This document shows, piece by piece, positions 19,062 through 53,607 of a stretch of DNA of 64,000 nucleotides (within the stretch, counting starts at the first letter, position 1; every line of letters begins with the position of its first letter). A program made the translations under genes and the position numbers. Origin of the DNA: Verrucomicrobiia bacterium (GTDB lineage Bacteria > Omnitrophota > Omnitrophia > Omnitrophales > Aquincolibacteriaceae); the NCBI GenBank assembly GCA_035495615.1, contig DATJFP010000051.1, forward strand, positions 364 through 64,363, written 5' to 3'. Under the pieces are notes generated by a model. That model saw only the letters and a list, made by a program, of their open reading frames with translations, made no database searches and was not told where the DNA came from.

Positions 19062-19184
19062 AAAAATCTTTCGGATCCTCTTCAGTATCTGCTAGCACGA
19101 AGAAGCAAGACGACGCATCCCTGACCCGTCAAAATCGGGCTCTCTAGGCAGGCGCGGAAACAGTGGGTAAACTCTAACAACCCT

Positions 19185-22100
19185 ATGCGCCTCCTTACGT
19201 TCTGCAAAAAAACAACGGCCCTTTTTCTCTGCGCATCCCTGCTGCTTTCCGACGGCTCTCTTTATGCCGCGGCCACGGCCACGCCGTCCCAAGAGCTCGC
19301 GTTCCGGCTTCCCAAAACCTTCGCGGAGGTGCAGGAATCTTTCCGCGGGACTTCGGGGAAAACCATTTTTTATCTCCAGGACGCGCACGATTCGCTGGAA
19401 GCGCAGCGCAACATTGCCCGCAGCATCCGGTTTCTCGTCGAGAAGTACGGCGTGCGCACGGTTTTCGAAGAAGGCTACGAAGGCCCCGTGCCCACGGCGC
19501 GTTACTTCGGCTTCATGAAGGACGCGGCGGCGCGCAAAAAAGTCTCGGATTTCCTGCTCGACAAACTCAGGATCGGCGGCGCGGAGTACGCGCACATCAA
19601 CCGCGCGCACGACTTCAGGCTGATCGGCGCGGATGATCTTGCCAAATACAAAAAGAACCTGGCGGCTTACCGCGAATCCGCGCGGCATCAGAACGAAGTG
19701 GAGCGCGACCTGCGCGCGATTTCCGCCCTCGTCGAAGCGCTCGTCCAGCGCGATTTCCCGAAACCGCTCAAAGACTGGCTGAAGCTCCGCGACCGGCACG
19801 AAGCCGGGCAGGCGGACCTTCTGGATTACGTGAGGCGCGCCGTGAAGATGGCGGAGAATCCCGCGGGCGCGCCGCATCTCGCTCTTCTGGCCGAGGCTCC
19901 GGAATCTTCGGAAGCCGCGGCGGAACTTGCCGCCGTGGAGCCCCGCGCGATTTTCGAAGAGCTCGGCACGCTCGAGCAGGCCATTGCCGCGCCATTCCTG
20001 AAAACGCCCCGCGACCTCGAGCTTTTCCGGTACCGCGAGGCGCTTCACCTGCTGCTGCGGCTGAACCGGAGGGACGTGACGTCCTCGGAGTACGAGGCCT
20101 CGCAGCAGACGCTGGCCGACCTCGACACGCAGAAGCTTGCCGGATTTCTCGCGCGCGAGACCGGAAAATCCCTGGCGCTTTCCAGGGCCTGGGAGAAAAG
20201 CCTGCGGACCGCCTCGCTTTTTTACGAGACCGCGCTCGAGCGCGACGGCGCGGTCGAGGCCGCGCTTTCGAAGTTCCTGCGGGAGCCCGGCGAAAACGCG
20301 GCCGTCCTCGTCTACGGCGGCTTTCACAAAGACAACATCCTCGCCATCCTCAAAAAGCTGGGCGTTTCCTATCAGGTGGCCGCGCCCGCCATTCCCGCGC
20401 CGGATCCGGTGCATGAAAATTATTACCGGCAGCTCATGACGCTCGGCAGCCTCGCGTACGAACGGCCTTTCATGGCCGCGGGCGCGGCTGCGAAAGCCAC
20501 ACGCGCGCCGTCGTCGTTCGTGGAACCGTTCGGCGAAGCCGTGATCGGCGGCCTTTACCGCGCGGCCTCGCGCAATCCCCGCGTTTCCGCGGAGCTTCTC
20601 GACCGCGTGCTGGAAACATCGGGCAAATCCGAACTGCGGCGGCTGGACGACTTCAAGCTCAAGCGGCTGACCTACATCGATCTCGAGGGAGCCGAGATGG
20701 ACGAGCTCCTCGGCATTTACCAGCACATCCGCGAAAGCATGGAAGCTTCCGGCTATGAAGCGCTCGAGGAATTCGGGGACGACAGCCGTTTCCTTCATGT
20801 CGTCGAGAGTTTGAAAGAGACGAGTTACGGCATCACGAACGGGGAAGGCAACCTCGTCGGTTTTGTTTTGAATAACCCCTATCCCGCGGCAGGCGATGCT
20901 TACCTGGGCATCGAGCTCATCGGCATCGATCCGGAATATCAGCGGGAAGGATTTGGGCGCCGTCTTCTCGCCATGAGCCAGGTGCTCGGACGCAAGCTCG
21001 GGAAAAAGGCGCTCGCGATCGACGTGGATCCGCAGAATCTTCCGATGATCCGGCTTGCCCTCGGATTCGGTTTTCATTTCGTGGACCGGAACTGGAGGCG
21101 CCGGCGTTACGCGGGCATGATCAAGAACATTCCGCCGCTTAACGGCCACGACTCCAAAGCCGGCCGCGCGGAACTCCGCACCGGTGCCGATGCACCGGTA
21201 CAGCCAAACATTCCGCGCGCCGAACGCGCGGAATTGCGCCGCCTCAACGAGGCCCATACCGCCGCTGTCGTATCGATTTCCGATCTCGACGACGACGAGA
21301 CAGACGGCTTGCTGGGAGTTTATCAAGGCATCCGCGAAAATATGCTCCGCCAGGGCTTCGAACCTTATCAGGAATTTCAGGACGACGAAATGTTCGTTTC
21401 CGAAATGGAGAGGCTGGAGGAGGCAAGTTTCGCGGTGACGGATCAAGACGGAAACATGGCCGGCTTTATTTTGAACGATCCCGAGCCCGATGTGGGAGAG
21501 CAATATCTCGAAGTGGAGCTGATGGGCGTCGATCCCGGCCAGCGCCGGCAGGGCCACGCGCTCCAGCTTCTGGCCGCGAGCCAGTCGCTTGCCCGCCGGT
21601 GGGGAAAAACGGCGCTGTGGCTGGAAGTCGAGGCCAGCAACACTTCGGCCATCCGGCTTTATAAAGGCTTCGGCTTCAAGACCGCGGGCCGCGGCGAAGA
21701 GTCCGGTTACATTGTGATGAAGAAATACCTCCGGCATCACGCCCACGGCCAGCGTGAGGACAGATTCCGCGCGGAGCTGCGCTCGATCTATGAGCCCTGG
21801 CTTTTGAAACTGGCGGCCGACGCGCGTGTCGGCGTGAGGGATTTCGAAAGCACGGGCAAAGGTTTTCTCAAAATGACCGCCCAGCCGTTCGCGGACGGCG
21901 TGGTCGCGGCGTTTCCGGCGGATGCGCGGGGAAAAGTTTTTGTCGCGGGAAGCGGGCAGGGCCTTTTCGAAGTGAAGCTCGCGAAGGAGCGCCCGGGACT
22001 CTCGATTTTCGGCGTGGAATACGATCTCGGGCTTTTGGGCGACAGCCAGCGAATCGCGGCAAAGGCCCAGGAGCAGAAAATCATCAATCCCGGGCAGGTT

Positions 22101-25100
22101 ATTTTTCAGGGCGGCGACTTCAACGGCGCGGAATTCGGCGCCCGCATTGCCGAAGCGGATTATGTTTACTACTACGACGGCGGCACGAAAAAACCGGACG
22201 ACCTGGCGGAAACGCTTATCCGTTCCATGAAACCGGGCGCGCGCCTGATCGTGTTCGGTTCGCAGCGCTGGGAGCCGGATTTTGTGGACGCGCTGCGCCG
22301 CTCGGGCTCTTTCAAGCTCGAAACCGATGATCGTCCGGTTTATGTGCTCCTCCGGGAAGACCAGCCGTGGAAAACCGAAAACCGCGCTGAGCTCCGCTCC
22401 GGCGTCCCGCAGTGGCTGGAAGAGCTGATGCGCGAAAAGGGCATCGCGCTGCGGGCCGACGAAAGCACGGAGGCCGGAATTCTCGTGCCCACGGCGGGCC
22501 AGGCCGCGGCGCAGGTCATCAGTGCCGTGCCGGAAAAAACAAAGTTGAATATTTTTGCCGCGGGAAGCGGGCAGGGGATTTTCGAGCTGCAGCTTGCCAA
22601 AGAAAGGCCGGACGCGGAAATCTTCGGCGTCGAATATCATCTGGGCGCCCTCGGTGAAAGTCAGGCCCTTGCGGAAGAAGCAGAGAAAAGAAACCTCATC
22701 AAACCGGGGCAGGTCCAATTCGCAGGCGGGAATTTCAACAAGCCCGACTTTGCCGGCCGCATCGCGCAGGCGGACATTGTTTATTATTTTGACCAGGGAA
22801 CGAAGTTCCCCGAAGAATTCGCCGAAACACTTCAGCGTTCCATGAAAGCCGGCGCCCGCCTCATCGTCCTGGCCGCGGGCTCACGGGAGCCGCATCTTTT
22901 GGATGCGCTGCGCCGCTCGCTGGCGTTCGAAACGGAAAGCGCGGCCCATCCCGTCTATGTTCTCCGCCGTCTTGAAGCCGAAGGAGATGCCGCGCAAGGC
23001 CGCGCGCTTCTGAGGCAGTGGATGAAAAACGCGCCCGCCCTTCTCGAGCGTCCGGCGCTGGGCGCCGTGGTCGCGCTGCCTCCCGCGGGCACGAAACTGG
23101 ATGCCGATCCGGCGCGCCATGAACTCATGATGACGGCGCTTGTGGAGCGCCTCGTCGAAATCTACCGCGGCAATTTCCCCGATGCCTCTCCCGAAGAGAG
23201 AACGCCGGAGCATTGGCGCAAACAGCTGGAAGACCCGGACCTGCGCCTGCTCCTCAAAGTCGACACGCAGGGCCGCATCGAGGGCATGCTGGTGGCGCAA
23301 AATTGGGGAGTGGAACGCCCCACGCTGATGCTGAAAACCGTGGCGGTCACGTTCGAAGAGCAGCTGAAAAAGAAGGGGGCCATGCTCCTGGATGCTTTCC
23401 TGCGCGAAGTGCACGCGGCGGGCCTTGCCGCGGACATCTGGTGGCTGACCAACTTCAGGGTGATCTCGCTTTATAAAACCTATTTGTCCCGCCGCGGCAT
23501 TCCCTTTCGCTTTGATGATTACAACAAGTTCGAAGTCTCGGTCAAGGATCTGCGGGACTTCGTGAAGTCCAGCCGCTTTCCGCCTCCGAAACAGCCCGGC
23601 GATGTCGAGGCCCGTCTCGCCAAAAGAGTGCAGATCTGGGAAAAGACATATACGCTGGCCCACGTCGTGCGCGCGCTCGAGCACCGCTCAGGCCAATGGA
23701 GGCTGGGGCCCGCGATGTTCGAAGAGCTCGGCGAGGAAGACAAGGTCCTTGTCCTGGCCGCGCTTTCCGGAGAAACCCGCCGGCGTCTGGATTTTAATCT
23801 TTTGATCCAGGAATCGTGGGACGACGCCATCGCCCAGGCCGGCGGCGACGCGGGCAAAGCGCTGACGGCCCGCGAAAACGGCGCCGCGCTGCGGAAACTT
23901 TTGAGCACCCAGGTCTTCGAGGTTGGAAAACGTTTCGATGCGACCGGCATCGAAAACGGGTTCGACGACCTGGCGCAGATCATGCTGGAAGGCAAGGTGC
24001 GCTCGGACCATCACGGCTCTCTTATCGGCCATGCTCAATTCGGCGACACGGCCTCCGGGCTGCACGGCCCGCTCTACGTTGTGTTCAAAAAACGGACCGC
24101 GGATGAAACCTGGCGCGAAAGGGACAACCACCTTTATTACCTCGTTCCCGAATGGAGCGACGCGCGCGCCTACGTGATCCTGCTCCAGAAAGCCGCGGCG
24201 CGCCATTTGATTCTGCCGGAGCTCGCGGCCTCGATCGCGCAGAAAATCATCACCTACCGGCAGTTCGTGGACCGGAATTCAGAGCTGCGTTCCGCGGACC
24301 GGCGTTTGTCTCTGGAAGAAATTCTCGGGCCGGAACACGTTCAAATCATGGACCGCTTTTTCGCCGAAGGCTATTGGATCGAGCTCGAAGGCGCCGGCCG
24401 TGAAAGAAAGGTTCTTGTTCACCATCGTGATCCTTCGAAATTCCGCGCCTACCAGGAGCCGCCGGGAAAATATTCCCTCGTCGAGGCAGAAAATGGGACA
24501 GCCCAGCTCAGCGGCATTTATCCCGGCCTTCCTCAAAATACCCAATTCGGCCGCATTTTCATCGCGTTGTCGCTGCTCATGCTTTATGGGGACCGCGAGG
24601 CGCGCAAAATTTTTGAAATCCATGCTATCCAGAGCAAGACTTTGGCCGGAAGCCTGCAGAAGCTCGGGGCCTTCGGAACCGCATCGATCTACCCCGCGGC
24701 CGCGCACGGCGCCTATGCCGATGTCGCCATCCGCGGAAGCGTGCCATTAATCGACGAGGCCGGAGCCGCCGAGATCCGCCGGCGGAATGACCGCAATAAA
24801 TCTGCCGGGGAACAGCAACACCCCGAATTGCGCGGGTTGGAAGAGGTTCGCGCCTATCTGGACAGCCGGCCGCACGCGGTTTGGTATGCAAGCTACGACG
24901 AAGCCGGGCAGGAATCCGTCGAGTACGTGAATCCTGCGTTCGCGAAAATATTCGGCACCACCGCGGAGGACATCCTCGCCAAGAAGACGTATGCGGCGAT
25001 CAACCCTCCGGGTGCGCCCATCGACAAGTACAAGGCCGACGACCGGAAGGCGATGAAACGCGGCCTGTTCGCGGCGCGCGAAGGCGAGCCCGCCGTTACG

Positions 25101-28100
25101 GTGGTGAAAATCAAAATGGGAAAAGGCGTTTTGGGCATGTTCACGCCGGCCGCGTCCAAGGGAAAGCTTTCCTTTAAGAATCTGGAGCCGGAACTTGCCG
25201 AAACCCTGAGAGAATTCAATTACACTTCCGGAACTTTCCTCACGCGCCGCGAAAAAAAGATGATCGAGCATTCCTATCATAACGGCTTCCTGCGGCAGGG
25301 GGACGTCCCGAGTCGCCCGCTCTGGCTTTTCGGCGAGCATGAAGCGGTCATGCCGTTCGTGGCCAGTCAGTTCGGAGAATCAGAAGTGCCCGTCGTGGCG
25401 CCGGAACTTTACCGCGATAAGCGCGTTCTCGTGGCCCCTGGCTACGGTAATCTTCCATTCCTGGTGCGGATGCTCGGCGCGCGCGAGGTCGTGGCTGTTG
25501 ACAGTGATCCCGTGACGATCGCCTGGCAAAAATTGAAATGGAAAACCGGCGGCCGTGACGCGATGCAATGGCTTTTTACTTACGAGCATTCCGGGTCCAT
25601 CCCGCGCATGCATCATCGCGGGACCTGGTATGCCAGGCTCAACCGCCCTCAGGCGGCGGACGTGATGACCGGGCTTTCTTTTTATACGGACAACGTCCTG
25701 AAGCCTCTCGGCCGCGGCAAATTCGATTTGATCGTGACGCCTTATTTGTTCGGATTCCCGGGCGGCCTTGACATGGAAGAGCTGGCCAATCAGGCCCTGG
25801 ACAATTTCCGGGAAAGCCTGGCCGAAGGCGGCCGTATTCTGATCCTGCCGGGAAAAATCGAATCAGCTCAGATTGCGGAAAGCCGCTCGAAAGATATTTT
25901 TCAGCACTACCAGGAATGGCTGGAAGGCCTGAAGGCCAAAGGCTGGGATGTGCAGTACAGCGAGGCTTACCCGTTTTATGATTTCAGCCAGGGGAATGTC
26001 CAGGGCCGCTACGCGATCCTGACGCCTCCGAAATCCGAGCTTCGAGCGGCGCAGACCGCGCTCGAATTGAAGGGCTTCGACGACAGAGCGCCGCTCTGGG
26101 CTTTTCTCATGGCCTTCGGCATCGACCCGGCGCGGGCACGCGTGAAGCCTCTCGAGGATAAATGGGGACGCGTGGAAGTCGCGCAAGACGCAGTGTTCGG
26201 CGTGCCCGCGGGCAAGCCGCTTCAGGATGCCGTCTACGAAAGCGCCATGGGCATTTTCGGCGAACGCGAGATCGAGCCGCTGTTGGAAAAGAACGGGCAC
26301 TCGAAGGAAACGGCCCTCAACTATCTTTATCTTCTGACCTATGAAAATAAACCCGCGGCGCTGGTCTGGGCCATTCCGGGCGCGCCGTTTTCTCCCATCC
26401 CGTTTTATTCGTTTACCGTCCAGAGCCAGGCGTCTTTCTGGCAGAGTCCGGGCGGGGGACAAGCTCAAACTTTCGCTGACGCGCGTCTCGAGGAGTTCAT
26501 CCGCCGGCACCACAAAAAAGATTACGGCAAAAACCCTGTTCTGCAGGGAGGCATCCCTCTTGATGCGGCCAATAACGGCATCCGCGGGATTCCCTGGCTT
26601 CAATTGAGGGAATTCAAAAACGGCGTAGTCCTTCCGACCGTATTTACCCTGGACCATGATTCGACACAGGATCTTTGGACGTTCGTGCAGCGCGTCGAAA
26701 GTTTGGGGATCGTCAGCCTGGCCGGCAAAACGGTCTCCGAAGTGGGCGCCGGCGCGGGATGGCTCGGCGCGCAAGCCGCTTCGCGCGGCGCGCAGGCCGC
26801 GCTTTACGATTTGACTCTTATCAAGGCCGCAAGCGCGTGGCTGACGGCCAAACGGAACGGTGTCGCGGACAACGTCTCTTCTTTCCGCTCGAAGGACGCT
26901 TCCATCCTGCCGCCCAGCGATCTTTATCTGTGGAACATTCCCGATTTTTCAAATCAAGCCCCCGATCTTTCCAAGGGCGGGCCCATGACGCAGAATGACA
27001 ACATCGACGTCAACAACCGCGTCAGGCCGGAAGACGTCGAAAAAGTTTTCCGCGAAGTGCGCGCCAAGGCCAAGCCGGATTCGCTTTTTGCCGTGCGCAT
27101 TAACACCAAGGACAAATCCGCGTTCCGGCATTTGGCACGGGCCGCGGGATGGGAAATTCATCCCCGTGAATTGGACATCGATACCAAGGATTTGGCCGGC
27201 GGCCTGTATTTTGTGCTTCAGCCTTCGCGTCCGGAGCCCAAGGACATTCGAGCCGTGCTCCGCCAGGCAAAATCCGTAGAGGATTATGCGGGCTTGGGCC
27301 GCATGGTCGACGTGGAAGAGGTTCTGCGCCTTCTCCCGCTCGAGGAAGAAAGGCAGGCGCTCGGCAGCGCGCTTTTTGAGGTGAGTAAGACGGCGTTTGA
27401 AATGGACGTGGACGAGGACTTCGTGCCCGTGCCCCTGGTTTCCGATGCTTCTGCGCGGCGCTTCTTTTTCGTGGATGATACGGGCTCGATCACGGGATAT
27501 GTGAAGTTCCGCGTCAAAGAGGGCGAAGCCTTTCTCGATGACATCGAGACGCTGAAGATCACGGACCGGAAGCCCGGACGCGGGCAGATCCTGATGAACT
27601 ATGCATTGCGCCAGATGAGAAAGGAAGGGTTCGGCCGCGTGATTTTATATCCCACGGAAAAAGCGATGCCCTTTTACGACACTTATGCTCAGGCGCGCGG
27701 CCTGGTTTTCGGCCTGGTCGATCCGCTGCATGACCGCTACAAATTTTTCATCGATTTCTCCGGCGCGCCGGACACAGCCCTGCAAAAAATCGTCCTCAAG
27801 GAATCCGGCCATCCGGAGCTGCGCGCCGTTCCCGACGAGACTCTGGCTTCGATGCTGTCCGCGGCTTTCGAGCAGGCGTTCCTTGGGCATCAGGCCTTCC
27901 TGGCTCCGGAAGACGAACGGCGTTTCGAAGCCATGCCGGACATCGAAGTGGGCGAGGAAGAAGAGTTCCCGCGCTTTCCGTTCCGTTTCAACGGCCCGGA
28001 CACCGTGCGCGTTTCCCGCTCCTTTCTCCAGATGCTGCAAAATCCCGCGGGCGCCGGCCTCATGCCCGGCCCTGAGTGGCTCCGCGAAACCGCGAGCGTT

Positions 28101-31100
28101 ATCGAAAAGAGGCGGGCCAATCCTCTGTCGGAATACGTTTACAACACCGTGTTCATGGAAGCCTTGAACGCCTGGCGCCGCGCCACGGGCCGTGAGGTTC
28201 CCGAGATGGAAATCATCGAGATCGATCCGGGGCAGTTTCCTCCCTCGGAGCCGGCGGGACAACGAAAAGTCCCGGCGTCCGAAGACCTGGTCAGCGGGGT
28301 GGACGCCATGGTCGCGCGGGTCAATAAGCTTGCCGCAGAAGCCGCGGCGGAAATCGGCAGCGGCACCGTGACCGCTTATTATGATGGAAGCGAAGCGGGC
28401 GCCGTCCGGGTCCGGGGCGGAAAAGTTCCCGAAGGCATGACGCTCGGATGGAAGACCGCGCTTTTCGTGGGCGAGGAGATCGCGGGCTCGGGACAGACGG
28501 ACCGCCTGCCCGAAGCCGACGAATTCCTTCGCGTCACGCGCGAAGGTTCGGCGATCAAAGTGGAGCTGGTGAAAAGCGAACTGCGATCGACGAATGGCGA
28601 AAGCGAAACCGAAATCGAGACGTATGAATTGAAACGCCGAAGCGCGCCGGAGGATGATTTTGCCAAGGTCACGCTTTTTAAGGACGCGTCCGGCGTGATC
28701 CAGGAAGCGTACCTCACGTTTGCCGAGCGCAAGGTCGAGGCCGTGGTCAAACAAAAGACCGTGCAGGCCAAAGAAGTGCGCTGGATCAAGATGGACATCG
28801 AGAAAAAGCAGGCCGTCAATTTCGTGCGCCTGAAGAACGCGAAGAACGAAGTGATCGAAACGCGGCAGTTTCCGCACAAAGATTTGCAGCCGGATTATTT
28901 CGCGGACATTCAGGACGCGGTGCTCGCTCTTTCCGATCAGATCGACGAGCTCAAGGCGCGCCGCGTCGACGGCGACGACCAGAGCCCGGAAGCGCTTTCG
29001 CTCGAAGAATCCCTTCAGGCGCTCGTCCACGTGCGCCGGCTCGTGGGCAATGTTTTCCGCGCGGCGCCGGCGCCGGATTTTGTTTCCATCACGCTCGGGC
29101 CGCACCGCGAAATCAAAGTGCGCCTTATCCAGGACGAAGCCGCGGGCGAACTGCGCGCCGTGTTTCCGTTCTCGGAAGAGCCGGAGCATCACGAACAGCA
29201 TCAGTTCGTCATCACGATCAATCCCCACGCGCAGCCGGCGGTCGCGATTCACATGTACGTCCGCCGCGTCCACGAAGGCGAGCTGATCGATGCGCTCGAC
29301 GTGAGGCCCGGGCCGGGCGAGCCCGCGCACGCGGACACGGGCTTCAGCTTCGAAGACCCGGAAGCGGAAGAAGACCAGGATTACGAACTCAGCATGTCGG
29401 ACATCCAGATGGCGCTCGAAGACTGGTTCGAGAGCCTGCCCGCGGAGCAGCAGACGCCTTTCCTGCGCGAGCGCATTTTCGAAACGCTGGCCTCGCTTTT
29501 CAAGGAATCCGAAGACGCCGCGCCTTCGCGCACGCTTGCCGAACACGCGGCCCTTTACGCGCCGGCCTTTGAATTGATGTCGGCGGCGGGGCGGAAGGAA
29601 CAGATTGTCCGCGAGCTGCGGCTTATCGGGAACCGCGCCAAGGCGCTTTCGGCGCGCGCGAAAAAATACGAATGGCTGGAGAATCTTTCGCTGGTCGCAT
29701 TTCTCCTGAGCGTGCGCCTGGAAGAAGCGAGTGTCAACTTTACCTCACGGCATCCGGAAATCCTGGAAGTGACCGTGGGATTTTTCGAGCAGTTCGGCGA
29801 AGTCTTTCCCGCCCTGACCGAAGACAGCACCCTCCTGGGACGGCTTTCCAAAAATCCGGGGCAGGAATACGAGCTTCTCATCCAGCTCGCGGAGGTCCTC
29901 CGCAATGAATTGCGCGCGGAAGATCTCGACGAGGGCACGCTCCACAAGTGGATCAAGGGCAATTACGTGGGGGATCTGGCGGCCTGGATCCGCGACCCGA
30001 ACGCGGCGCCGGAAGTCCGGCTTGACCGCGCGCGGCGCTACCTTATCGGGGCCGGCCTCATCCCTCATCATGGCGCCGTGCTGTCGGCCGTCGCGGCGGA
30101 GACGGGGCAGCACGTGGAGAATTACGTGTACCGGATGAACGAAGAAATCTTCGATCGCCTGGAAACCATGGCCCGGGAAAAGAAAGGTTACGTTCCCGGC
30201 GTGATTTATTTCAACGACGAAGGCCTGCTGCGGAATTTTTCCGCGCCGCTGGCCGCCTTGCCGGAGGTGCATTCGGAGCTTGCCCAGCGGTTTTTCGGCG
30301 TCGAAGGCATCAAGCTTCTGCGCGAAGTCCTGCCGCCGCAATCCGAAGAACACTGGTGGAATACTCTGGGGACCCTTGAAAATCCCGAGGGCATGCGGCA
30401 GTGGATTCTGGACACGCTCGTGCCGTCTTTGCGCGAAGCCAATCGCCGGAAATTTCGCCCGGAACTGCGCTCCGCGAAAAGTGAAACCGCGGAGGCGGAT
30501 TTCGAAGCGTCGGTCCGGAAATTCGCTTCTCTTGTGCGCCGCGATACCATCCTGGCTCTGGGTGAAAATCCCGACGACGAGAAATCCATGCTGGAATGCC
30601 CGATGTGCGCCATGGCGACGCCGCTGATAAATAATCTGGCGGCCGAATTTTTCAAGAACGATCCCGCCGTCAAGGTTGAAAGCTGGGGCGGGCTGGTGAG
30701 GCAAGCGGGCTCCGAAGGGCAGGCGAATCCGCCTTCCTTTTTCCATTTCTGGACGGAGATCGAACGGGAAGGAAAACGTTTTTACGTCAGCGTGATGGAC
30801 GGCCAGATGGGCGTGAGGGAATGGGCCTTGGGACCGAACGTGACCGAGCTTCCGGCCGGAGACGGCAAATACGAATTCTTGAAAAGTTCCGGATGGCGAA
30901 TCGTCATGGCTGAAAAACAGGACATGATGCGCATCTACCGGTTTGTCGCGCGGCTTTCGAATCTCCAGCATTTCGAAGACGCCGGAAGCCCTCTCCACAG
31001 CGCCGAAGCCGTGCGGGACCACTTGGGGCGGATGGCTTCGCTGTTGATCAAGGAAGGTATTTTCCAAGGCAAGACGGAACTTCGCACTGCCAGAAACAAA

Positions 31101-31691
31101 GCTTTGGATGCCGTGGGGAAAAAATCCCTGGAGCAGTTTGCAATGCCTGCCGCCGTTTTTCTGGAGGCGCGCGAGCTGGTCCAGCTGACCCCGGCCCAGT
31201 CGAGCCGGCAATGGGAAGAAATCCTGACGCTCGTCTCCCTGCACAAAGGGCTCGACGTGTACATAACCGGCACGGACCGTTATCCTCTTTCGAACCTGAA
31301 ACTCCCCAAACTCCAGAAACTCCTGGCCGAACATTCGGACCGCCTCCATCTGGGCCTGCACGACCGCGCGAATCTCGCCAAAAAGAAAATTTTCATCCAG
31401 GCGTCTTTTATTTCCGGCGGCACGGCGAAGGACACGGAAAAGCTGCTGGCCTCGCTCAAGCAAAGCTATGGCATCCGCCAAGCCGTGTATGCGCTGGATT
31501 ACGCCCAGGCCGGCGCCTTGCGCGCTTTTCTCGGCATCGCGGAATCTTTCAAAGAAGCCGAGCTCATCCGGCAGATCGGCGAAGCCTACGCGGTCCGCGG
31601 GCCGAACGGGCGCTGGCAGATCGCGCAAACCTACCTGAACTCGGTCTGGACCGAGATGCAGAACCGCTACGCAGTTGCCTGGTCCGCGTAA
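19185..31691 (+). CDS. Giant secreted multidomain protein (4168 aa). It combines a possible Tiki/ChaN-like N-terminal domain, four GNAT acetyltransferase-like modules, four Rossmann SAM-methyltransferase-like modules, a PAS-like module and a ~1300 aa helical C-terminal region.
   Basis: A 12.5 kb open frame in a 64% GC genome. N-terminal signal peptide (MRLLTFCKKTTALFLCASLLLSDGSLYAAA). GNAT Q/R-x-x-G-x-G/A motifs: QREGFGRRLL, QRRQGHALQLL, PGRGQILMNYAL. Rossmann G-x-G-x-G motifs: VAGSGQG, AAGSGQG, EVGAGAGWLG, VAPGYGN. PAS-like stretch VEYVNPAFAKIFGTTAEDIL. Confidence 0.8.
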   Translation: MRLLTFCKKTTALFLCASLLLSDGSLYAAATATPSQELAFRLPKTFAEVQESFRGTSGKTIFYLQDAHDSLEAQRNIARSIRFLVEKYGVRTVFEEGYEGPVPTARYFGFMKDAAARKKVSDFLLDKLRIGGAEYAHINRAHDFRLIGADDLAKYKKNLAAYRESARHQNEVERDLRAISALVEALVQRDFPKPLKDWLKLRDRHEAGQADLLDYVRRAVKMAENPAGAPHLALLAEAPESSEAAAELAAVEPRAIFEELGTLEQAIAAPFLKTPRDLELFRYREALHLLLRLNRRDVTSSEYEASQQTLADLDTQKLAGFLARETGKSLALSRAWEKSLRTASLFYETALERDGAVEAALSKFLREPGENAAVLVYGGFHKDNILAILKKLGVSYQVAAPAIPAPDPVHENYYRQLMTLGSLAYERPFMAAGAAAKATRAPSSFVEPFGEAVIGGLYRAASRNPRVSAELLDRVLETSGKSELRRLDDFKLKRLTYIDLEGAEMDELLGIYQHIRESMEASGYEALEEFGDDSRFLHVVESLKETSYGITNGEGNLVGFVLNNPYPAAGDAYLGIELIGIDPEYQREGFGRRLLAMSQVLGRKLGKKALAIDVDPQNLPMIRLALGFGFHFVDRNWRRRRYAGMIKNIPPLNGHDSKAGRAELRTGADAPVQPNIPRAERAELRRLNEAHTAAVVSISDLDDDETDGLLGVYQGIRENMLRQGFEPYQEFQDDEMFVSEMERLEEASFAVTDQDGNMAGFILNDPEPDVGEQYLEVELMGVDPGQRRQGHALQLLAASQSLARRWGKTALWLEVEASNTSAIRLYKGFGFKTAGRGEESGYIVMKKYLRHHAHGQREDRFRAELRSIYEPWLLKLAADARVGVRDFESTGKGFLKMTAQPFADGVVAAFPADARGKVFVAGSGQGLFEVKLAKERPGLSIFGVEYDLGLLGDSQRIAAKAQEQKIINPGQVIFQGGDFNGAEFGARIAEADYVYYYDGGTKKPDDLAETLIRSMKPGARLIVFGSQRWEPDFVDALRRSGSFKLETDDRPVYVLLREDQPWKTENRAELRSGVPQWLEELMREKGIALRADESTEAGILVPTAGQAAAQVISAVPEKTKLNIFAAGSGQGIFELQLAKERPDAEIFGVEYHLGALGESQALAEEAEKRNLIKPGQVQFAGGNFNKPDFAGRIAQADIVYYFDQGTKFPEEFAETLQRSMKAGARLIVLAAGSREPHLLDALRRSLAFETESAAHPVYVLRRLEAEGDAAQGRALLRQWMKNAPALLERPALGAVVALPPAGTKLDADPARHELMMTALVERLVEIYRGNFPDASPEERTPEHWRKQLEDPDLRLLLKVDTQGRIEGMLVAQNWGVERPTLMLKTVAVTFEEQLKKKGAMLLDAFLREVHAAGLAADIWWLTNFRVISLYKTYLSRRGIPFRFDDYNKFEVSVKDLRDFVKSSRFPPPKQPGDVEARLAKRVQIWEKTYTLAHVVRALEHRSGQWRLGPAMFEELGEEDKVLVLAALSGETRRRLDFNLLIQESWDDAIAQAGGDAGKALTARENGAALRKLLSTQVFEVGKRFDATGIENGFDDLAQIMLEGKVRSDHHGSLIGHAQFGDTASGLHGPLYVVFKKRTADETWRERDNHLYYLVPEWSDARAYVILLQKAAARHLILPELAASIAQKIITYRQFVDRNSELRSADRRLSLEEILGPEHVQIMDRFFAEGYWIELEGAGRERKVLVHHRDPSKFRAYQEPPGKYSLVEAENGTAQLSGIYPGLPQNTQFGRIFIALSLLMLYGDREARKIFEIHAIQSKTLAGSLQKLGAFGTASIYPAAAHGAYADVAIRGSVPLIDEAGAAEIRRRNDRNKSAGEQQHPELRGLEEVRAYLDSRPHAVWYASYDEAGQESVEYVNPAFAKIFGTTAEDILAKKTYAAINPPGAPIDKYKADDRKAMKRGLFAAREGEPAVTVVKIKMGKGVLGMFTPAASKGKLSFKNLEPELAETLREFNYTSGTFLTRREKKMIEHSYHNGFLRQGDVPSRPLWLFGEHEAVMPFVASQFGESEVPVVAPELYRDKRVLVAPGYGNLPFLVRMLGAREVVAVDSDPVTIAWQKLKWKTGGRDAMQWLFTYEHSGSIPRMHHRGTWYARLNRPQAADVMTGLSFYTDNVLKPLGRGKFDLIVTPYLFGFPGGLDMEELANQALDNFRESLAEGGRILILPGKIESAQIAESRSKDIFQHYQEWLEGLKAKGWDVQYSEAYPFYDFSQGNVQGRYAILTPPKSELRAAQTALELKGFDDRAPLWAFLMAFGIDPARARVKPLEDKWGRVEVAQDAVFGVPAGKPLQDAVYESAMGIFGEREIEPLLEKNGHSKETALNYLYLLTYENKPAALVWAIPGAPFSPIPFYSFTVQSQASFWQSPGGGQAQTFADARLEEFIRRHHKKDYGKNPVLQGGIPLDAANNGIRGIPWLQLREFKNGVVLPTVFTLDHDSTQDLWTFVQRVESLGIVSLAGKTVSEVGAGAGWLGAQAASRGAQAALYDLTLIKAASAWLTAKRNGVADNVSSFRSKDASILPPSDLYLWNIPDFSNQAPDLSKGGPMTQNDNIDVNNRVRPEDVEKVFREVRAKAKPDSLFAVRINTKDKSAFRHLARAAGWEIHPRELDIDTKDLAGGLYFVLQPSRPEPKDIRAVLRQAKSVEDYAGLGRMVDVEEVLRLLPLEEERQALGSALFEVSKTAFEMDVDEDFVPVPLVSDASARRFFFVDDTGSITGYVKFRVKEGEAFLDDIETLKITDRKPGRGQILMNYALRQMRKEGFGRVILYPTEKAMPFYDTYAQARGLVFGLVDPLHDRYKFFIDFSGAPDTALQKIVLKESGHPELRAVPDETLASMLSAAFEQAFLGHQAFLAPEDERRFEAMPDIEVGEEEEFPRFPFRFNGPDTVRVSRSFLQMLQNPAGAGLMPGPEWLRETASVIEKRRANPLSEYVYNTVFMEALNAWRRATGREVPEMEIIEIDPGQFPPSEPAGQRKVPASEDLVSGVDAMVARVNKLAAEAAAEIGSGTVTAYYDGSEAGAVRVRGGKVPEGMTLGWKTALFVGEEIAGSGQTDRLPEADEFLRVTREGSAIKVELVKSELRSTNGESETEIETYELKRRSAPEDDFAKVTLFKDASGVIQEAYLTFAERKVEAVVKQKTVQAKEVRWIKMDIEKKQAVNFVRLKNAKNEVIETRQFPHKDLQPDYFADIQDAVLALSDQIDELKARRVDGDDQSPEALSLEESLQALVHVRRLVGNVFRAAPAPDFVSITLGPHREIKVRLIQDEAAGELRAVFPFSEEPEHHEQHQFVITINPHAQPAVAIHMYVRRVHEGELIDALDVRPGPGEPAHADTGFSFEDPEAEEDQDYELSMSDIQMALEDWFESLPAEQQTPFLRERIFETLASLFKESEDAAPSRTLAEHAALYAPAFELMSAAGRKEQIVRELRLIGNRAKALSARAKKYEWLENLSLVAFLLSVRLEEASVNFTSRHPEILEVTVGFFEQFGEVFPALTEDSTLLGRLSKNPGQEYELLIQLAEVLRNELRAEDLDEGTLHKWIKGNYVGDLAAWIRDPNAAPEVRLDRARRYLIGAGLIPHHGAVLSAVAAETGQHVENYVYRMNEEIFDRLETMAREKKGYVPGVIYFNDEGLLRNFSAPLAALPEVHSELAQRFFGVEGIKLLREVLPPQSEEHWWNTLGTLENPEGMRQWILDTLVPSLREANRRKFRPELRSAKSETAEADFEASVRKFASLVRRDTILALGENPDDEKSMLECPMCAMATPLINNLAAEFFKNDPAVKVESWGGLVRQAGSEGQANPPSFFHFWTEIEREGKRFYVSVMDGQMGVREWALGPNVTELPAGDGKYEFLKSSGWRIVMAEKQDMMRIYRFVARLSNLQHFEDAGSPLHSAEAVRDHLGRMASLLIKEGIFQGKTELRTARNKALDAVGKKSLEQFAMPAAVFLEARELVQLTPAQSSRQWEEILTLVSLHKGLDVYITGTDRYPLSNLKLPKLQKLLAEHSDRLHLGLHDRANLAKKKIFIQASFISGGTAKDTEKLLASLKQSYGIRQAVYALDYAQAGALRAFLGIAESFKEAELIRQIGEAYAVRGPNGRWQIAQTYLNSVWTEMQNRYAVAWSA

Positions 31692-31709: not shown

Positions 31710-32225
31710 ATGCTCGAAGGGCGCCTAAAATTCCTGCCGGATCTTCTGCGGGCCGTGCTTTTCTGTGCCGCCTTTTTGATGGCGGGCTCGATTCTGTACA
31801 CGGCCAGTTACTGCCAATCCGTCCTCGCGCATGACCTCCAGAAGTACGGCGTCCTGGTCCGCGGCGGGCAAGAGGATGCGGCGCCGAGAGTCGCGGCCTT
31901 CAAAGAAAAATTCCCCAACCGCTTCAACGATTCCCTGGAACTCCTGAGGCCCGAAGAAGTGCTGCATCACGCCACCTGGACCGTGATCGGCCGCTACGGC
32001 CTGATGCGCAGCCGCCCGCTCCTTTCTTATTATGAAAAGGACCTGGGCTTCGAACGCTACATGACGGGCGAACTCGCCGCGTTTACGCGGATCGATCTCT
32101 ACAAGCTGAAGAAACTGAAATCCAAGAAAGATTCCGTGCGGCTGATGGCCTATGCGGCGTACTTCCTCGCGGTGCTGGCCCCGGCCTATTATCTCTCCCG
32201 CGTCATCCCGCGCCTGAAATTCTGA
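31710..32225 (+). CDS. Hypothetical membrane protein immediately downstream of the giant gene
   Basis: Starts 19 nt after the giant ORF stop. N-terminal and C-terminal TM helices (AVLFCAAFLMAGSILY and AAYFLAVLAPAYYL). Confidence 0.55.
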   Translation: MLEGRLKFLPDLLRAVLFCAAFLMAGSILYTASYCQSVLAHDLQKYGVLVRGGQEDAAPRVAAFKEKFPNRFNDSLELLRPEEVLHHATWTVIGRYGLMRSRPLLSYYEKDLGFERYMTGELAAFTRIDLYKLKKLKSKKDSVRLMAYAAYFLAVLAPAYYLSRVIPRLKF

Positions 32226-32625: not shown

Positions 32626-32645
32626 TACCATAAATTTTTATGGTA
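32626..32645. promoter_or_regulatory. Candidate LexA operator: TACCAT-AAATTTTT-ATGGTA
   Basis: Perfect 6-bp inverted arms with an 8-nt A/T spacer, 12 nt upstream of the lexA ATG. The position is consistent with autoregulation. Confidence 0.45.
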
Positions 32646-32657
32646 TATGAGTGCGGT

Positions 32658-53151: not shown

Positions 53152-53607
53152 ATGCCTGAAACCCTGCAAAATTTTACGGCGACGTTCCGCAGCATCCAGC
53201 CGAAGTTTTCCCGGATGTTCACGCGCATTCTGAACCGCGCGGGCCTGACGCTGCCGCAGTATGCGCTCCTGACCGAGCTCGGCCACGCGACGCGCGCCAT
53301 GACCATGACCGAGATCAGCCGCAAGCTCTACATCACGAAGCCCGCCGTGACCAGCCTGGTCGACCGCCTGGAAAAGGGCGGGTACCTGCGCCGGGCCGCG
53401 CATCCGGATGACCGCCGGATTTTCCTGCTGGAAATCCTCGCCAAGGGGCGCAAGACCGTCGACTGCGTGCAGGGAATATTCCTCAACATGCTCCTGGCCA
53501 CCCTGAAAAATTTCAGCGCCTCCGACCGGAAGATCATCGAGAAATTTTACGCGCATTTTTCGATCACGATCGACGACACGCTTTGCAGCAAGGAGTGCCG
53601 TTCGTGA
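53152..53607 (+). CDS. MarR family transcriptional regulator
   Basis: wHTH LTLPQYALLTELGHATRAMTMTEISRKLYITKPAVTSLVDRLEKGGYLRR...DRR. Confidence 0.85.
   Translation: MPETLQNFTATFRSIQPKFSRMFTRILNRAGLTLPQYALLTELGHATRAMTMTEISRKLYITKPAVTSLVDRLEKGGYLRRAAHPDDRRIFLLEILAKGRKTVDCVQGIFLNMLLATLKNFSASDRKIIEKFYAHFSITIDDTLCSKECRS

What the first reader, a model, noticed from the sequence alone, without database searches (positions are those of the whole stretch)
19185..31691. Uninterrupted 12.5 kb ORF encoding a 4168-aa secreted mosaic protein with multiple GNAT and methyltransferase-like modules
An open frame of 4168 codons is essentially impossible by chance, even at 64% GC. The translated product has a clear signal peptide. 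It also has at least four independent GNAT Q/R-x-x-G-x-G/A motifs, at least four Rossmann G-x-G-x-G SAM-MTase-like cores and a PAS-like stretch. The final ~1300 aa is helical and acidic with no recognisable motif. A secreted protein combining several acyl-transfer and methyl-transfer modules is not a family I recognise. It could be a giant surface/cell-envelope modifying enzyme, a polymorphic effector or a processed polyprotein. This is the strongest candidate for the undescribed system in the window.
Basis: partly seen in the sequence, partly recalled or inferred. Interest (0 to 1): 0.92.

Follow-up and report, generated by a model that had tools for sequence, protein, structure and literature searches.

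The report
Secreted modular polyprotein with punctuation motif
The 12.5-kb gene is real and belongs to a very large, undescribed family of exported giant proteins in Candidatus Omnitrophota, in which a hydrolase-like head and a conserved tail bracket shuffled enzyme modules separated by a short motif (R-x-E-Φ-R) that may be the unknown cleavage code of this phylum's giant proteins.

Summary
**Observation:** confirmed. ORF 19185-31691 (+) is one intact 4168-codon gene (P of chance about 6e-60).

broadly correct.
- Three GNAT modules pass Pfam thresholds and one is borderline.
- Two tandem class I methyltransferases are significant by profile, one passes Pfam, and one is weak.
- The PAS hit is sub-threshold.

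- a Sec-type signal peptide
- a 480-aa N-cap with a Tiki/TraB/erythromycin-esterase/RRSP fold and an invariant D-x-H…E…GGFH catalytic-like set
- eleven cassette modules, each bounded by [R/K]-x-E-L-R (12 sites against 0.25 expected)
- a 200-aa C-cap ending …YAVAWSA

**The family:**
- It has more than 8,000 cluster representatives, and all retrieved loci are Omnitrophota.
- The motif is about 100-fold enriched and absent from ordinary neighbouring genes.
- Motif sites mark module-shuffling boundaries.
- The middle residue of the motif is lineage-specific.
- Cysteine is depleted 9-fold.

**Best reading:** an exported polyprotein whose linkers are recognition, probably cleavage, sites, possibly for its own N-cap. 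It would release cofactor-dependent enzymes as effectors, analogous to MARTX toxins. Cleavage itself is not shown.

**Novelty:** a new variant of the known Omnitrophota giant multi-enzyme proteins.

The parts
19185..31691 (+). Complete gene, 4168 codons plus stop
   Evidence: no stop codon, uniform codon-position GC, P(chance) about 6e-60
19185..19274 (+). Sec-type signal peptide (about residues 1-30: MRLLTFCKKTT / ALFLCASLLL / SDGSLYAAA). The cleavage position is inferred, not shown.
   Evidence: Read from the sequence. AF2 predicts a helix at 2-22 followed by a disordered stretch. Equivalent peptides occur in 122 of 139 family representatives.
19314..20459 (+). N-cap (residues ~44-425): an α/β core of the Tiki/TraB/Ere/ChaN/RRSP superfamily with a ~215-aa helical insertion (residues ~150-365)
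19377..19394 (+). Q65-D66-A67-H68-D69-S70: candidate catalytic acid-x-His, invariant in the family
   Evidence: 79 of 79 sequences. Corresponds by position to E3900-x-H3902 of RRSP (PMC6254334).
19464..19484 (+). F94-E95-E96-G97-Y98-E99-G100. E96 lies 28 residues after H68, the same His-to-Glu spacing as in RRSP and Bcr135.
19575..19604 (+). GGAEYAHINR (residues 131-140): second invariant block (E134, H137, R140)
20316..20330 (+). G378-G379-F380-H381-K382: a GxxH motif carrying the distal candidate catalytic His
   Evidence: 79 of 79 sequences
20460..20624 (+). Disordered tether between the N-cap and the first linker motif (residues 426-480)
   Evidence: pLDDT below 50 over residues 426-482
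20625..20639 (+). Linker motif 1, K-S-E-L-R (residues 481-485)
20640..21179 (+). M2: GNAT acetyltransferase (residues 486-665), with the acetyl-CoA motif QREGFG at 586-591. It ends in linker motif 2, R-A-E-L-R (nt 21165-21179).
   Evidence: PF00583 E 1e-10. Best NCBIfam resemblance is RimI, below its cut-off.
21180..21239 (+). M3: 20-aa spacer peptide flanked by two motifs. It ends in linker motif 3, R-A-E-L-R (nt 21225-21239).
   Evidence: Such short inter-site peptides make up 17% of family segments.
21240..21782 (+). M4: GNAT acetyltransferase (residues 686-866), a tandem duplicate of M2 (45% identity). It ends in motif 4, R-A-E-L-R (nt 21768-21782).
   Evidence: PF00583 E 8.7e-17; duplication
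21783..22397 (+). M5: class I SAM methyltransferase (residues 867-1071), motif I GSGQG at 922-926. It ends in motif 5, R-A-E-L-R (nt 22383-22397).
   Evidence: Module profile A6 against the PDB: 5bxy 1.6e-8, PrmA-like 2.8e-7, aKMT 6e-7, DOT1L 1e-5
22398..24290 (+). M6 (residues 1072-1702): an MTase duplicate of M5 (53% identity, residues ~1072-1265), a borderline GNAT (~1321-1431) and an unknown C-terminal part. It ends in motif 6, N-S-E-L-R (nt 24276-24290).
   Evidence: Its sub-parts occur separately in P0139.
24291..24833 (+). M7 (residues 1703-1883): unknown module. It ends in motif 7, H-P-E-L-R (nt 24819-24833).
   Evidence: No Pfam hit and no homolog in the 220-protein family sample
24834..26045 (+). 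M8 (residues 1884-2287): a weak PAS-like N-terminal part plus an MTase-like core (VAPGYGNLP at 2083-2091). It ends in motif 8, K-S-E-L-R (nt 26031-26045).
   Evidence: PAS E 0.003-0.06. Profile A7 gives weak, MTase-only hits. Homologous cassettes occur in L002, L014 and P0139.
26046..27824 (+). M9 (residues 2288-2880): a conserved N-terminal part, an MTase core (GAGAG at 2521-2525) and a GNAT (~2749-2831, RKPGRG). It ends in motif 9, H-P-E-L-R (nt 27810-27824).
   Evidence: MTS 24.3 bits against GA 23. PF00583 E 1.9e-5. Cassette homologs in L002, P0139 and P0168.
27825..28586 (+). M10 (residues 2881-3134): unknown acidic module (pI 4.7). It ends in motif 10, K-S-E-L-R (nt 28572-28586).
28587..30470 (+). 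M11 (residues 3135-3762): unknown acidic module (pI 5.0). It ends in motif 11, R-P-E-L-R (nt 30456-30470).
30471..31085 (+). M12 (residues 3763-3967): unknown module holding the only two cysteines of the mature protein (CPMC, residues 3805-3808, nt 30597-30608). It ends in motif 12, K-T-E-L-R (nt 31071-31085).
31086..31688 (+). M13, the C-cap (residues 3968-4168): a family-defining α/β module, basic (pI 9.6), ending in the conserved tail R-Y-A-V-A-W-S-A (nt 31665-31688)
   Evidence: Alignment of 24 C-caps. phmmer E about 1e-50 to the C-termini of P0153, P0143, P0158, P0102, L010 and P0088. Tail logo from 106 proteins.

Best explanation
The gene encodes one member of a very large family of exported, cassette-built polyproteins. 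Every retrieved locus is from Candidatus Omnitrophota.

**Shown**
- A Sec-type signal peptide is followed by a conserved ~480-aa N-cap. The N-cap has the α/β fold of the Tiki/TraB/erythromycin-esterase/ChaN/RRSP hydrolase superfamily and keeps an invariant acid-x-His … Glu (+28) … GxxH set.
- A variable string of enzyme cassettes follows. Here these are 2 tandem RimI-like GNATs, 2 tandem small class I methyltransferases, further GNAT/MTase/PAS-like units and four unknown modules.
- A conserved ~200-aa C-cap closes the protein and ends in …Φ-Φ-x-x-[S/A]-A-COOH.
- Every cassette is bounded by a short motif in an exposed linker. It is R-[S/A]-E-Φ-R in the family and [R/K/H]-x-E-L-R in this protein.

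**Inferred**
- The motif is the recognition site of a site-specific factor that co-evolves with it. That factor is most likely an endopeptidase that cuts the exported precursor into its modules.
- The most economical candidate is the protein's own N-cap, because Tiki and RRSP are sequence-specific endopeptidases of this fold.
- The cargo needs acetyl-CoA, SAM, ATP or UDP-sugars, yet the protein carries an export signal and avoids cysteine. The released modules would therefore act as effectors inside another cell (host or prey). This is analogous to MARTX multi-effector toxins, but built from unrelated parts.

**My confidence for each step**
- family and architecture: 0.9
- the motif is a recognised functional site: 0.75
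- it is proteolytically cleaved: 0.5
- the N-cap is the protease: 0.3
- the modules act in another cell: 0.3
For: **Family**
- N-cap homologs come only from Omnitrophota records, with several paralogs per genome.
- The N-cap profile matches 8,412 representative clusters, with the N-cap always N-terminal, on proteins of 400-6,726 aa.
- 106 of 139 representatives end in the [S/A]-A tail.

**Motif**
- Window protein: 12 sites against 0.25 expected, with a maximum of 3 in 2000 shuffles.
- Family: 347 against 3.7 expected and 683 against 6.6 expected.
- Arg at the unconstrained -1 position is present in 77% of sites.
- Codons vary between sites, so selection acts on the peptide and not the DNA.
- Ordinary neighbouring ORFs of 150-500 aa have 2 against 1.3 expected. 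Other motif-bearing ORFs mostly end in the family tail.
- Sites lie in hydrophobicity dips and S/T/P-rich linkers, and after the disordered tail of the N-cap.
- BLAST HSP starts fall within 15 aa of a site in 32% of cases against 6.5% for random positions. Cassettes occur in a different order in L002 and P0139.

**Co-evolution signal**
- The Φ residue is protein- and genome-specific: dominant fraction 0.666 against a null of 0.499±0.011.
- All paralogs of two genomes use Leu only (28/28 and 27/27). P0069 uses Val in 15 of 16 sites.
- Variant motifs such as RPEAR characterise other lineages.

**N-cap**
- QDAH, E95/E96, E134, H137, R140 and GGFH are invariant in 79 sequences.
- The His-to-Glu spacing of 28 equals that of RRSP and Bcr135 (PMC6254334).

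**Export**
- Signal peptides are family-wide and there is no internal TM segment.
- Cys is 0.12% against 1.12% in neighbours, with Trp, Met and His unchanged.

**Cargo**
- GNAT and MTase in this protein.
- Across the family: GTs, kinase, patatin, NUDIX, HD, radical SAM and others.
Against: - No experimental or proteomic evidence of cleavage exists, and none could be obtained here.
- The residue equivalences rest on spacing, not on a 3-D superposition.
- Superfamily members include esterases and a haem binder, not only proteases.
- A few members keep an intact N-cap but have no motif (L049, L064, P0169). That fits a second or different N-cap function.
- The genome-specific Φ preference could partly reflect shared ancestry of the linkers.
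- No secretion or translocation apparatus is encoded next to the gene, and no mechanism for entering another cell is evident.
- Radical-SAM cargo in some members is hard to reconcile with Sec export and cysteine avoidance.
- The C-cap fold and role are unknown.
Confidence: 0.5

Rival explanations
1. The protein is an uncleaved beads-on-a-string enzyme. It functions as one giant exported or surface-associated polypeptide. R-x-E-Φ-R is then a structural or docking element of the linkers, for example a short motif bound by the caps, a chaperone or a scaffold, and not a cleavage site.
For: - Both preprints on Omnitrophota giant proteins treat them largely as single multi-domain products.
- Motif-less members exist.
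- No processing data exist.
Against: - A purely structural linker would not need two invariant Arg and an invariant Glu.
- It would also not show lineage-specific co-variation of the middle residue across non-homologous cassettes.
- Short peptides of 15-60 aa bracketed by two sites (17% of segments) have no obvious role in a scaffold.
- Cofactor-dependent enzymes tethered outside the cytoplasm would lack their substrates.
Confidence: 0.25
2. The protein is a polyprotein cut in trans by a separate Arg-directed protease, for example an S8 subtilisin/kexin-like or C39 peptidase as proposed for larger Omnitrophota giants. The N-cap would do something else, such as acting as an esterase or lipid hydrolase, binding a ligand or haem like ChaN, or anchoring the protein to the envelope.
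For: - West-Roberts et al. propose C39 and S8 domains as processing proteases.
- R-x-x-x-R resembles basic-residue protease sites (from my own knowledge).
- The Φ preference is shared by all paralogs of a genome, as expected for one shared trans factor.
- N-caps remain intact in motif-less members.
- The Ere and ChaN relatives of the N-cap are not proteases.
Against: - No protease gene is conserved next to family genes.
- Within the sampled loci the motif occurs only in proteins that also carry the N-cap or the family tail. That is the pattern expected for cis recognition.
Confidence: 0.2
3. The N-terminal hydrophobic segment is an uncleaved membrane anchor, and the bulk of the protein stays in the producer's cytoplasm. 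There the GNAT and MTase modules modify the cell's own proteins or envelope precursors.
For: - The cargo enzymes need cytoplasmic cofactors.
- Nielsen & Lui consider inner-membrane-anchored cytoplasmic architectures for many giants.
Against: - The N-terminus has the charge distribution, the short 10-residue h-region and the A-x-A-like site of a cleavable Sec signal. There are no further TM segments.
- Nine-fold cysteine depletion across 630,000 residues is typical of exported proteins, not cytoplasmic ones.
- In Nielsen & Lui's classification, signal-peptide-only proteins are read as fully secreted.
Confidence: 0.1
4. The ORF is an assembly chimera, or fused neighbouring genes, and not one gene.
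For: - The window comes from an uncultured organism.
- The exact protein is not on record elsewhere.
- Read depth could not be examined.
Against: - The head, the 12 in-frame motifs and the tail with its stop codon reproduce the architecture seen in more than 100 independent complete family members from other assemblies.
- Codon-position GC and cysteine avoidance are uniform along the ORF.
Confidence: 0.02

Closest known systems
Omnitrophota giant multi-enzyme proteins (West-Roberts et al. 2023, bioRxiv 10.1101/2023.11.21.568195; Nielsen & Lui 2026, bioRxiv 10.64898/2026.06.07.730766)
   Same: - Same phylum.
- Many unrelated enzyme domains are tiled on one polypeptide, including GNAT, methyltransferase, GT, NUDIX, PPDK_N, HATPase_c and radical SAM.
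- An N-terminal signal peptide (their 'SP-only' class).
- N-terminal regions 'lacking identifiable domains'.
- Cleavage has been suspected for these proteins.
- The same PDB relative, 5BXY, is found for a methyltransferase domain.
   Different: - Those studies cover proteins of at least 10 kaa (2026) or at least ~30 kaa (2023). This family spans about 0.5-6.7 kaa.
- Neither paper describes a conserved N-cap, a C-cap with an invariant tail, a linker motif or cysteine depletion.
- West-Roberts et al. state explicitly that cleavage points are unknown.
- This protein has no dockerin, TSP3, C39, S8 or TM content.
MARTX (multifunctional autoprocessing RTX) toxins
   Same: - A giant secreted protein with conserved ends and a variable, shuffled array of enzymatic effector modules.
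- In MARTX the modules are released by an in-built protease cutting in inter-module linkers.
- One MARTX effector, RRSP, has the same fold as the N-cap.
- Paralogs and orthologs differ in cargo.
   Different: - No RTX repeats, no C80 cysteine protease domain (the mature protein has almost no Cys) and no T1SS-type architecture. It has a Sec signal peptide instead.
- The linker site is R-x-E-Φ-R, not a Leu-based site.
- Processing and delivery are not shown here.
- The resemblance is one of working principle, not of descent.
Tiki / TraB-PrgY / erythromycin esterase / ChaN / RRSP (TIKI) superfamily
   Same: - An invariant acid-x-His, a Glu 28 residues later and a distal GxxH His, matching the 2His/2Glu layout of RRSP and Bcr135.
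- Tiki and RRSP are sequence-specific endopeptidases.
   Different: - No sequence-profile similarity.
- Asp replaces the first Glu.
- A ~215-aa helical insertion splits the core.
- It always heads a giant modular protein.
- The activity and the substrate are unknown.
Viral polyproteins and bacterial surface polyproteins such as the gingipain/HagA precursors (from my own knowledge)
   Same: One translation product carries its own protease and a repeated short cleavage consensus between functional units.
   Different: - These are unrelated proteases and motifs.
- The bacterial examples have few modules and fixed architectures, whereas this family shuffles dozens of enzyme types.
- Cleavage is only inferred here.

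Membership tests
TIKI (Tiki/TraB/Ere/ChaN/RRSP) superfamily - N-cap | α/β core with a central parallel β-sheet flanked by helices | tested here: met
   [not shown]
TIKI (Tiki/TraB/Ere/ChaN/RRSP) superfamily - N-cap | 2His/2Glu catalytic set (E-x-H, a Glu about 28 residues later, a distal His) | tested here: inconclusive
   D66-x-H68, E96 (H68+28) and H381 in GGFH are invariant in 79 of 79 sequences and match the RRSP and Bcr135 spacing. However, the first acid is Asp, and equivalence was judged by spacing because no 3-D superposition was available.
TIKI (Tiki/TraB/Ere/ChaN/RRSP) superfamily - N-cap | Sequence-profile match to a member family (Pfam TraB_PrgY_gumN, Erythro_esteras, Cofac_haem_bdg) | tested here: not met
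   No such hit at E <= 1 in Pfam or NCBIfam. The profile search against PDB sequences was empty.
TIKI (Tiki/TraB/Ere/ChaN/RRSP) superfamily - N-cap | Hydrolase (peptidase or esterase) activity | not testable with these tools
   Needs biochemistry.
GNAT acetyltransferases (PF00583) | Profile match above the gathering score, plus the acetyl-CoA motif Q/R-x-x-G-x-G/A | tested here: met
   M2 42.4 bits, M4 61.9 bits and M9 25.3 bits, against GA 20.7. The motifs QREGFG (586), RRQGHA (787) and RKPGRG (2795) are read from the sequence. M6 is borderline at 20.3 bits with a poor motif.
Class I SAM-dependent methyltransferases | Rossmann-like core with the glycine-rich motif I, and a significant profile match | tested here: met
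   M5/M6N profile against PDB MTases: E 1.6e-8 to 1e-5, GSGQG motif. M9 core: Pfam MTS 24.3 bits against GA 23. M8 core: only weak MTase hits, E 0.003-0.6, so that module alone is inconclusive.
PAS domain | Profile match above the gathering score | tested here: not met
   Best hit is PAS_8 at 18.0 bits against GA 21.8; the others are lower.
MARTX toxins | Glycine-rich RTX-type repeat regions at both ends | tested here: not met
   No RTX or haemolysin-type repeat hit at E <= 1. The ends are the N-cap and the C-cap.
MARTX toxins | Internal cysteine protease domain (Peptidase C80) for autoprocessing | tested here: not met
   No hit. The mature protein has only two Cys.
MARTX toxins | Variable effector modules between conserved ends, released at inter-module linkers | tested here: inconclusive
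   Variable cassettes between conserved ends are shown. Release at the linkers is inferred only.
Omnitrophota giant multi-enzyme proteins (as catalogued in 2023 and 2026) | An Omnitrophota protein tiled with many unrelated enzyme domains | tested here: met
   phylum; domains.
Omnitrophota giant multi-enzyme proteins (as catalogued in 2023 and 2026) | Length of at least 10,000 aa; TM helices, dockerin, TSP3, C39 or SecA content | tested here: not met
   4,168 aa. No TM segment beyond the signal peptide. None of these domains was found.
Known C-terminal sorting signals (PEP-CTERM, T9SS CTD, LPXTG and similar) | Profile match at the C-terminus | tested here: not met
   No Pfam or NCBIfam hit in residues 3968-4168 at E <= 1.

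The most novel reading that the evidence does not exclude
Omnitrophota possess a phylum-wide, self-processing secreted polyprotein system. A Tiki/RRSP-like N-cap protease would read a lineage-tuned R-x-E-Φ-R code and cut exported precursors into dozens of interchangeable, cysteine-free enzyme effectors (acetyl-, methyl- and glycosyl-transferases, kinases, lipases) that act inside host or prey cells. The same code may also punctuate the 10-150 kaa giant proteins of the phylum. That would supply the missing cleavage map and turn those proteins from curiosities into dissectable effector arrays.
Probability: 0.25. Interest if true: 0.88.

Novelty: new variant of a known kind. Interest (0 to 1): 0.7.

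Why it matters
Omnitrophota are ubiquitous, mostly uncultured nanobacteria, and their giant genes are an open puzzle. West-Roberts et al. ask whether the products are cleaved, and state that the lack of known cleavage points blocked module-wise analysis.

This locus exposes three simple, checkable sequence rules that hold across thousands of proteins:
- a conserved hydrolase-like head and a conserved tail
- an R-x-E-Φ-R punctuation motif
- near-absence of cysteine

Together they make several things possible:
- a parsing rule for cutting these proteins into modules for structure prediction
- a concrete candidate protease and substrate pair for biochemistry
- precise predictions for N-terminomics
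- compositional evidence that the cargo leaves the cytoplasm

If processing and delivery are confirmed, this would be a bacterial multi-effector polyprotein system independent of MARTX. It would also open up a large reservoir of new protein-modifying enzymes.

Tried and rejected
**Searches and predictions that gave nothing**
- The whole-protein homology search timed out.
- A single-sequence search with the C-cap found nothing. A profile search found only 4 short fragments.
- AF2 on the C-cap with a 7-sequence alignment gave pLDDT 48, so no fold search was run on it.
- The N-cap profile against PDB sequences found no hit.
- BLASTP of the C-cap against P0006 and P0019 was not significant on its own. 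Homology only became clear from the multiple alignment and phmmer.
- PDB sequence searches for M8C, M9 and M10-M12 as single sequences found nothing.
- The AFDB fold library was unavailable.
- The look-up of the exact protein found nothing on record.

**Hypotheses rejected**
- A DNA-level repeat or recombination signal behind the motif: the codons differ between sites.
- A conserved operon partner (protease or secretion system): the neighbours are not conserved across 80 loci. Only LexA and a 193-aa ORF are shared, and only with the two closest relatives.
- Loss of N-cap catalytic residues in motif-less members: the residues are intact.
- A lipoprotein signal: there is no lipobox (read from the sequence).

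**Literature searches**
- Searches for the pentapeptides, and for Omnitrophota with polyprotein, autoprocessing or cleavage motif, found nothing relevant.


Full report
**1.

Window 19185..31691 (+) is an uninterrupted ATG-to-stop frame of 4168 codons.
- From the ORF's own composition (60.4% GC, not 64%), the chance of no stop is about 6e-60. Shuffles of the window never gave more than 348 stop-free codons.
- Codon-position GC (about 0.66/0.42/0.73) is the same in all nine 500-codon blocks. The long antisense ORFs are GC-rich shadow frames.
- The strongest argument against a frameshift or chimera is architectural. The frame begins with a family-specific head, carries 12 in-frame copies of a family-specific motif, and ends with a family-specific tail directly before the stop codon (see below).

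**2.

*GNAT*
- Pfam finds GNAT (PF00583) in four stretches.
- Scanned module by module, three exceed the gathering score (residues 486-665, 686-866, ~2749-2831) and one is just below it (~1321-1431).
- The acetyl-CoA motifs are visible in the sequence.

*Methyltransferases*
- Single-sequence evidence was marginal.
- A profile built from homologous cassettes of other family members hits class I SAM methyltransferases in the PDB. The hits are 5BXY 'RNA methyltransferase' (E 1.6e-8), a PrmA-like protein, an archaeal protein-lysine MTase and DOT1L.
- That covers the tandem pair at 867-1071 and 1072-~1265, which are 53% identical to each other.
- The core at ~2519 passes Pfam MTS. The one at ~2083 hits only MTases, but weakly.

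*Other calls*
- PAS is sub-threshold.
- Residues 2881-3967 match nothing in Pfam or in PDB sequences.

**3. What the protein really is: a capped, punctuated, cassette-built polyprotein.**

'ELR' occurs 15 times against 3 expected. The pattern [SAPT]-E-L-R-[STAGR] occurs 12 times against 0.25 expected, with a maximum of 3 in 2000 shuffles. All 12 sit at boundaries between the Pfam-defined units. The codons differ between sites, so the conservation is at the peptide level.

Cutting at these sites gives 13 pieces:
- the N-cap (residues 1-485)
- GNAT, a 20-aa spacer, GNAT, MTase
- a 631-aa composite (MTase + GNAT-like + unknown)
- an unknown 181-aa unit
- PAS-like + MTase-like
- conserved unknown + MTase + GNAT
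- three unknown acidic units
- a basic 201-aa C-cap

The two GNATs (45% identity) and the two MTases (53% identity) are tandem duplications that include the preceding motif.

**4. The family.**

*Distribution and size*
- The first 482 residues have homologs only in Candidatus Omnitrophota records.
- A pattern scan of one genome per species found 165 loci. Those whose record names a phylum are Omnitrophota (many are titled only 'uncultured bacterium', one 'uncultured Planctomycetales'), and there are often 3-5 paralogs per genome.
- A profile search of 1.84 billion cluster representatives found 8,412 matches (2,863 at E <= 1e-30). The module is always at the N-terminus, on proteins of about 400 to 6,726 aa.

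*C-cap*
- Complete members end in a homologous ~175-200-aa module.
- Its tail is nearly fixed: …Y-x-x-[L/V]-[V/A]-[I/V/F]-[A/S]-x-[A/S]-A-stop. It is present in 106 of 139 mutually divergent representatives, and the rest look contig-truncated.

*Motif*
- Across the family the motif is R(77%)-S(68%)/A-E-[L 37, V 28, M 21, I 12%]-R.
- The strict form occurs 347 times against 3.7 expected in 81 proteins, and 683 times against 6.6 expected in 139 further representatives.
- In ordinary neighbouring ORFs of 150-500 aa it occurs 2 times against 1.3 expected.
- The few other ORFs that carry it mostly end in the family tail, so they are further, often tandem, family members cut by the locus edge.

*Linker character and shuffling*
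- Sites lie in hydrophobicity dips with S/T/P-rich, aromatic-poor flanks, and directly after the disordered tail of the N-cap model.
- Inter-site distances are bimodal: domain-sized (150-1000 aa) or short peptides under 60 aa (17%).
- BLAST alignments between different members start within 15 aa of a site in 32% of cases, against 6.5% for random positions.
- Cassettes of the window protein recur in L002, L014, P0139 and P0168 at other positions and in another order.

*Cargo*
- Cargo in 12 other complete members includes GT1/GT2/GT4, protein kinase, patatin, ARMT1-like phosphatase, PPDK_N, HATPase_c, HD, NUDIX, acyltransferase, B12/radical SAM and MTases.
- No neighbouring gene is conserved across the loci. 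The window around the gene holds ordinary chromosomal genes.

**5. The N-cap.**
- AF2 with a 19-sequence alignment gives pLDDT 81 and pTM 0.74. The model has an α/β core split by a ~215-aa helical insertion, followed by a disordered tail.
- The three best Foldseek hits are from the same superfamily but weak.
- No sequence profile detects the relationship.
- The RRSP structure paper defines the active members by a 2His/2Glu set: E3900, H3902, E3930, H4030. In Bcr135 the pair is H85/E113 (PMC6254334).
- The N-cap has D66-x-H68, E96 exactly 28 residues after the His, and H381 in a GGFH (GxxH) motif. All are invariant in 79 sequences.
- I therefore read the N-cap as a probably active hydrolase of this superfamily. 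Whether it is a peptidase (like Tiki and RRSP) or an esterase (like Ere) cannot be decided here.

**6. Evidence that the motif is read by a specific partner.**
- The middle hydrophobic residue is not random among proteins. The mean dominant-residue fraction is 0.666, against 0.499±0.011 in permutations (maximum 0.536).
- All paralogs of genome CAYSSX use only Leu (28/28), as do all paralogs of JAUYMS (27/27). P0069 uses Val in 15 of 16 sites, the JBAYGD paralogs favour Met, and the window protein uses Leu in 12 of 12.
- Some apparent 'motif-less' members use variants such as R-P-E-A-R (8 times in P0113) or R-A-E-N-R.
- The cassettes of these paralogs are mostly unrelated. A lineage-specific consensus maintained across them therefore points to co-evolution with a lineage-specific recognition factor. 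Shared ancestry of the linkers may contribute.

**7. Evidence for export.**
- Classical signal peptides head the family: a basic n-region, a hydrophobic run of at least 10 residues (about 10 in the window protein), and …SYA|A or AFA|Q type sites.
- The window protein has no further TM-like segment.
- Cysteine is nearly absent: 2 in 4,128 mature residues here. Across 630,000 family residues it is 0.12%, against 1.12% in neighbouring genes, while Trp, Met and His are unchanged.
- From established knowledge, such avoidance is typical of proteins that leave the cytoplasm unfolded.
- Neither preprint on Omnitrophota giant proteins mentions cysteine, a capping domain or a linker motif.

**8. Most likely mechanism.**

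*Shown*
- the architecture
- the motif and its family specificity
- cassette shuffling at the motif
- the lineage-specific motif variants
- the hydrolase-like, strictly conserved head
- the export signature

*Inferred*
- The exported precursor is cut at R-x-E-Φ-R, most economically by its own N-cap.
- The released enzymes need acetyl-CoA, SAM, ATP or nucleotide sugars, so they would act inside another cell. That fits the host-dependent or predatory lifestyle reported for the phylum.

This works like a MARTX toxin but is not one. There are no RTX repeats, no C80 protease and no T1SS-type layout.

*Rivals*
- an uncleaved scaffold whose motif is a docking element
- cleavage by a separate Arg-directed protease, with the N-cap doing something else
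- a cytoplasmically retained, anchored enzyme array
- an assembly artefact

Evidence for and against each is given in the Rival explanations section.

**9. Novelty and verdict.**

Giant multi-enzyme proteins of Omnitrophota are known, and cleavage has been suspected. West-Roberts et al., however, state that cleavage points are unknown.

The capped family, its R-x-E-Φ-R punctuation, the lineage-specific motif variants, the Tiki-like head and the cysteine avoidance appear undescribed. I class this as a new variant of a known kind.

Interest is high (0.7) because it turns an open question into direct tests. It is not higher because processing, the protease and the site of action are all still inferred.

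Noticed in passing
window 30597-30608 (residues 3805-3808, in M12): The only two cysteines of the mature 4,128-aa protein form a CPMC (CxxC) motif inside an otherwise unannotated module. It could be a metal or redox site.
   Followed up: no
window 21180-21239 (residues 666-685), and family-wide: A 20-aa peptide (TGADAPVQPNIPRAERAELR) lies between two linker motifs. Short peptides of 15-60 aa flanked by two sites make up 17% of inter-site segments in the family. In many members one follows the N-cap directly and is semi-conserved (R-A-E-L-R-A-I-A-S-S-V-E…). They might be released peptides or pseudo-substrates.
   Followed up: partly
L020 3-7817, L045 2-9688, L055 2-9664, L032 3-2789, L018 2-1879, L010 2-1387, L061 3-5408: In other genomes, the ORF directly upstream of a family gene is often the C-terminal part of another family member (motif-bearing, ending in the family tail). 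Paralogs are therefore frequently arranged in tandem.
   Followed up: partly
P0113, P0126, P0148 (variants); L049, L064, P0169 (none): Lineage-specific motif variants occur: RPEAR eight times in P0113, R[SAT]EAR in P0126, and RAENR/RAEAR in P0148. A few long members have no motif at all, and in the two of them checked (L049, L064) the N-cap catalytic-like residues are intact.
   Followed up: partly
window 18267-19061 (+): Directly upstream (124-nt gap) lies a secreted-looking 264-aa protein with a FecR domain and an acidic, low-complexity tail. It is not conserved next to family genes elsewhere.
   Followed up: partly
window 31710-32225 (+): A 171-aa ORF starts 18 nt after the stop codon. It has two hydrophobic segments and no Pfam hit, and it is not conserved next to family genes in the 80 loci.
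   Followed up: partly
window 32640-33284 and 33371-33952; L001 and L002: LexA and a 193-aa ORF of unknown function lie next to the family gene here and also, inverted and upstream, in the two closest relatives (77% and 60-62% identity). This is the only synteny found.
   Followed up: yes
window 17-1051; 53583-58099; 12399-14567; 39926-42334: The window also holds a Fic/DOC-domain protein at its left edge, a TolC-like OEP plus AcrB-type RND pump, and two MMPL-family transporters. These are ordinary chromosomal context.
   Followed up: no
window 19092-22718 (-), 27645-29546 (-), 29745-31628 (-): Antisense ORFs of 627-1208 aa lie inside the gene. They lack the sense frame's codon-position GC pattern: two did not pass the coding-pattern filter, and the third (27645-29546) has GC1 above GC3. 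I read them as shadow frames of a GC-rich gene, not as genes.
   Followed up: yes
M5/M6N (window 21783-22977): The best PDB relative of the tandem methyltransferases, 5BXY, is the same structure that West-Roberts et al. report for a domain of a >30 kaa Omnitrophota giant protein. This hints that the giants and this smaller family draw on one cassette pool.
   Followed up: no
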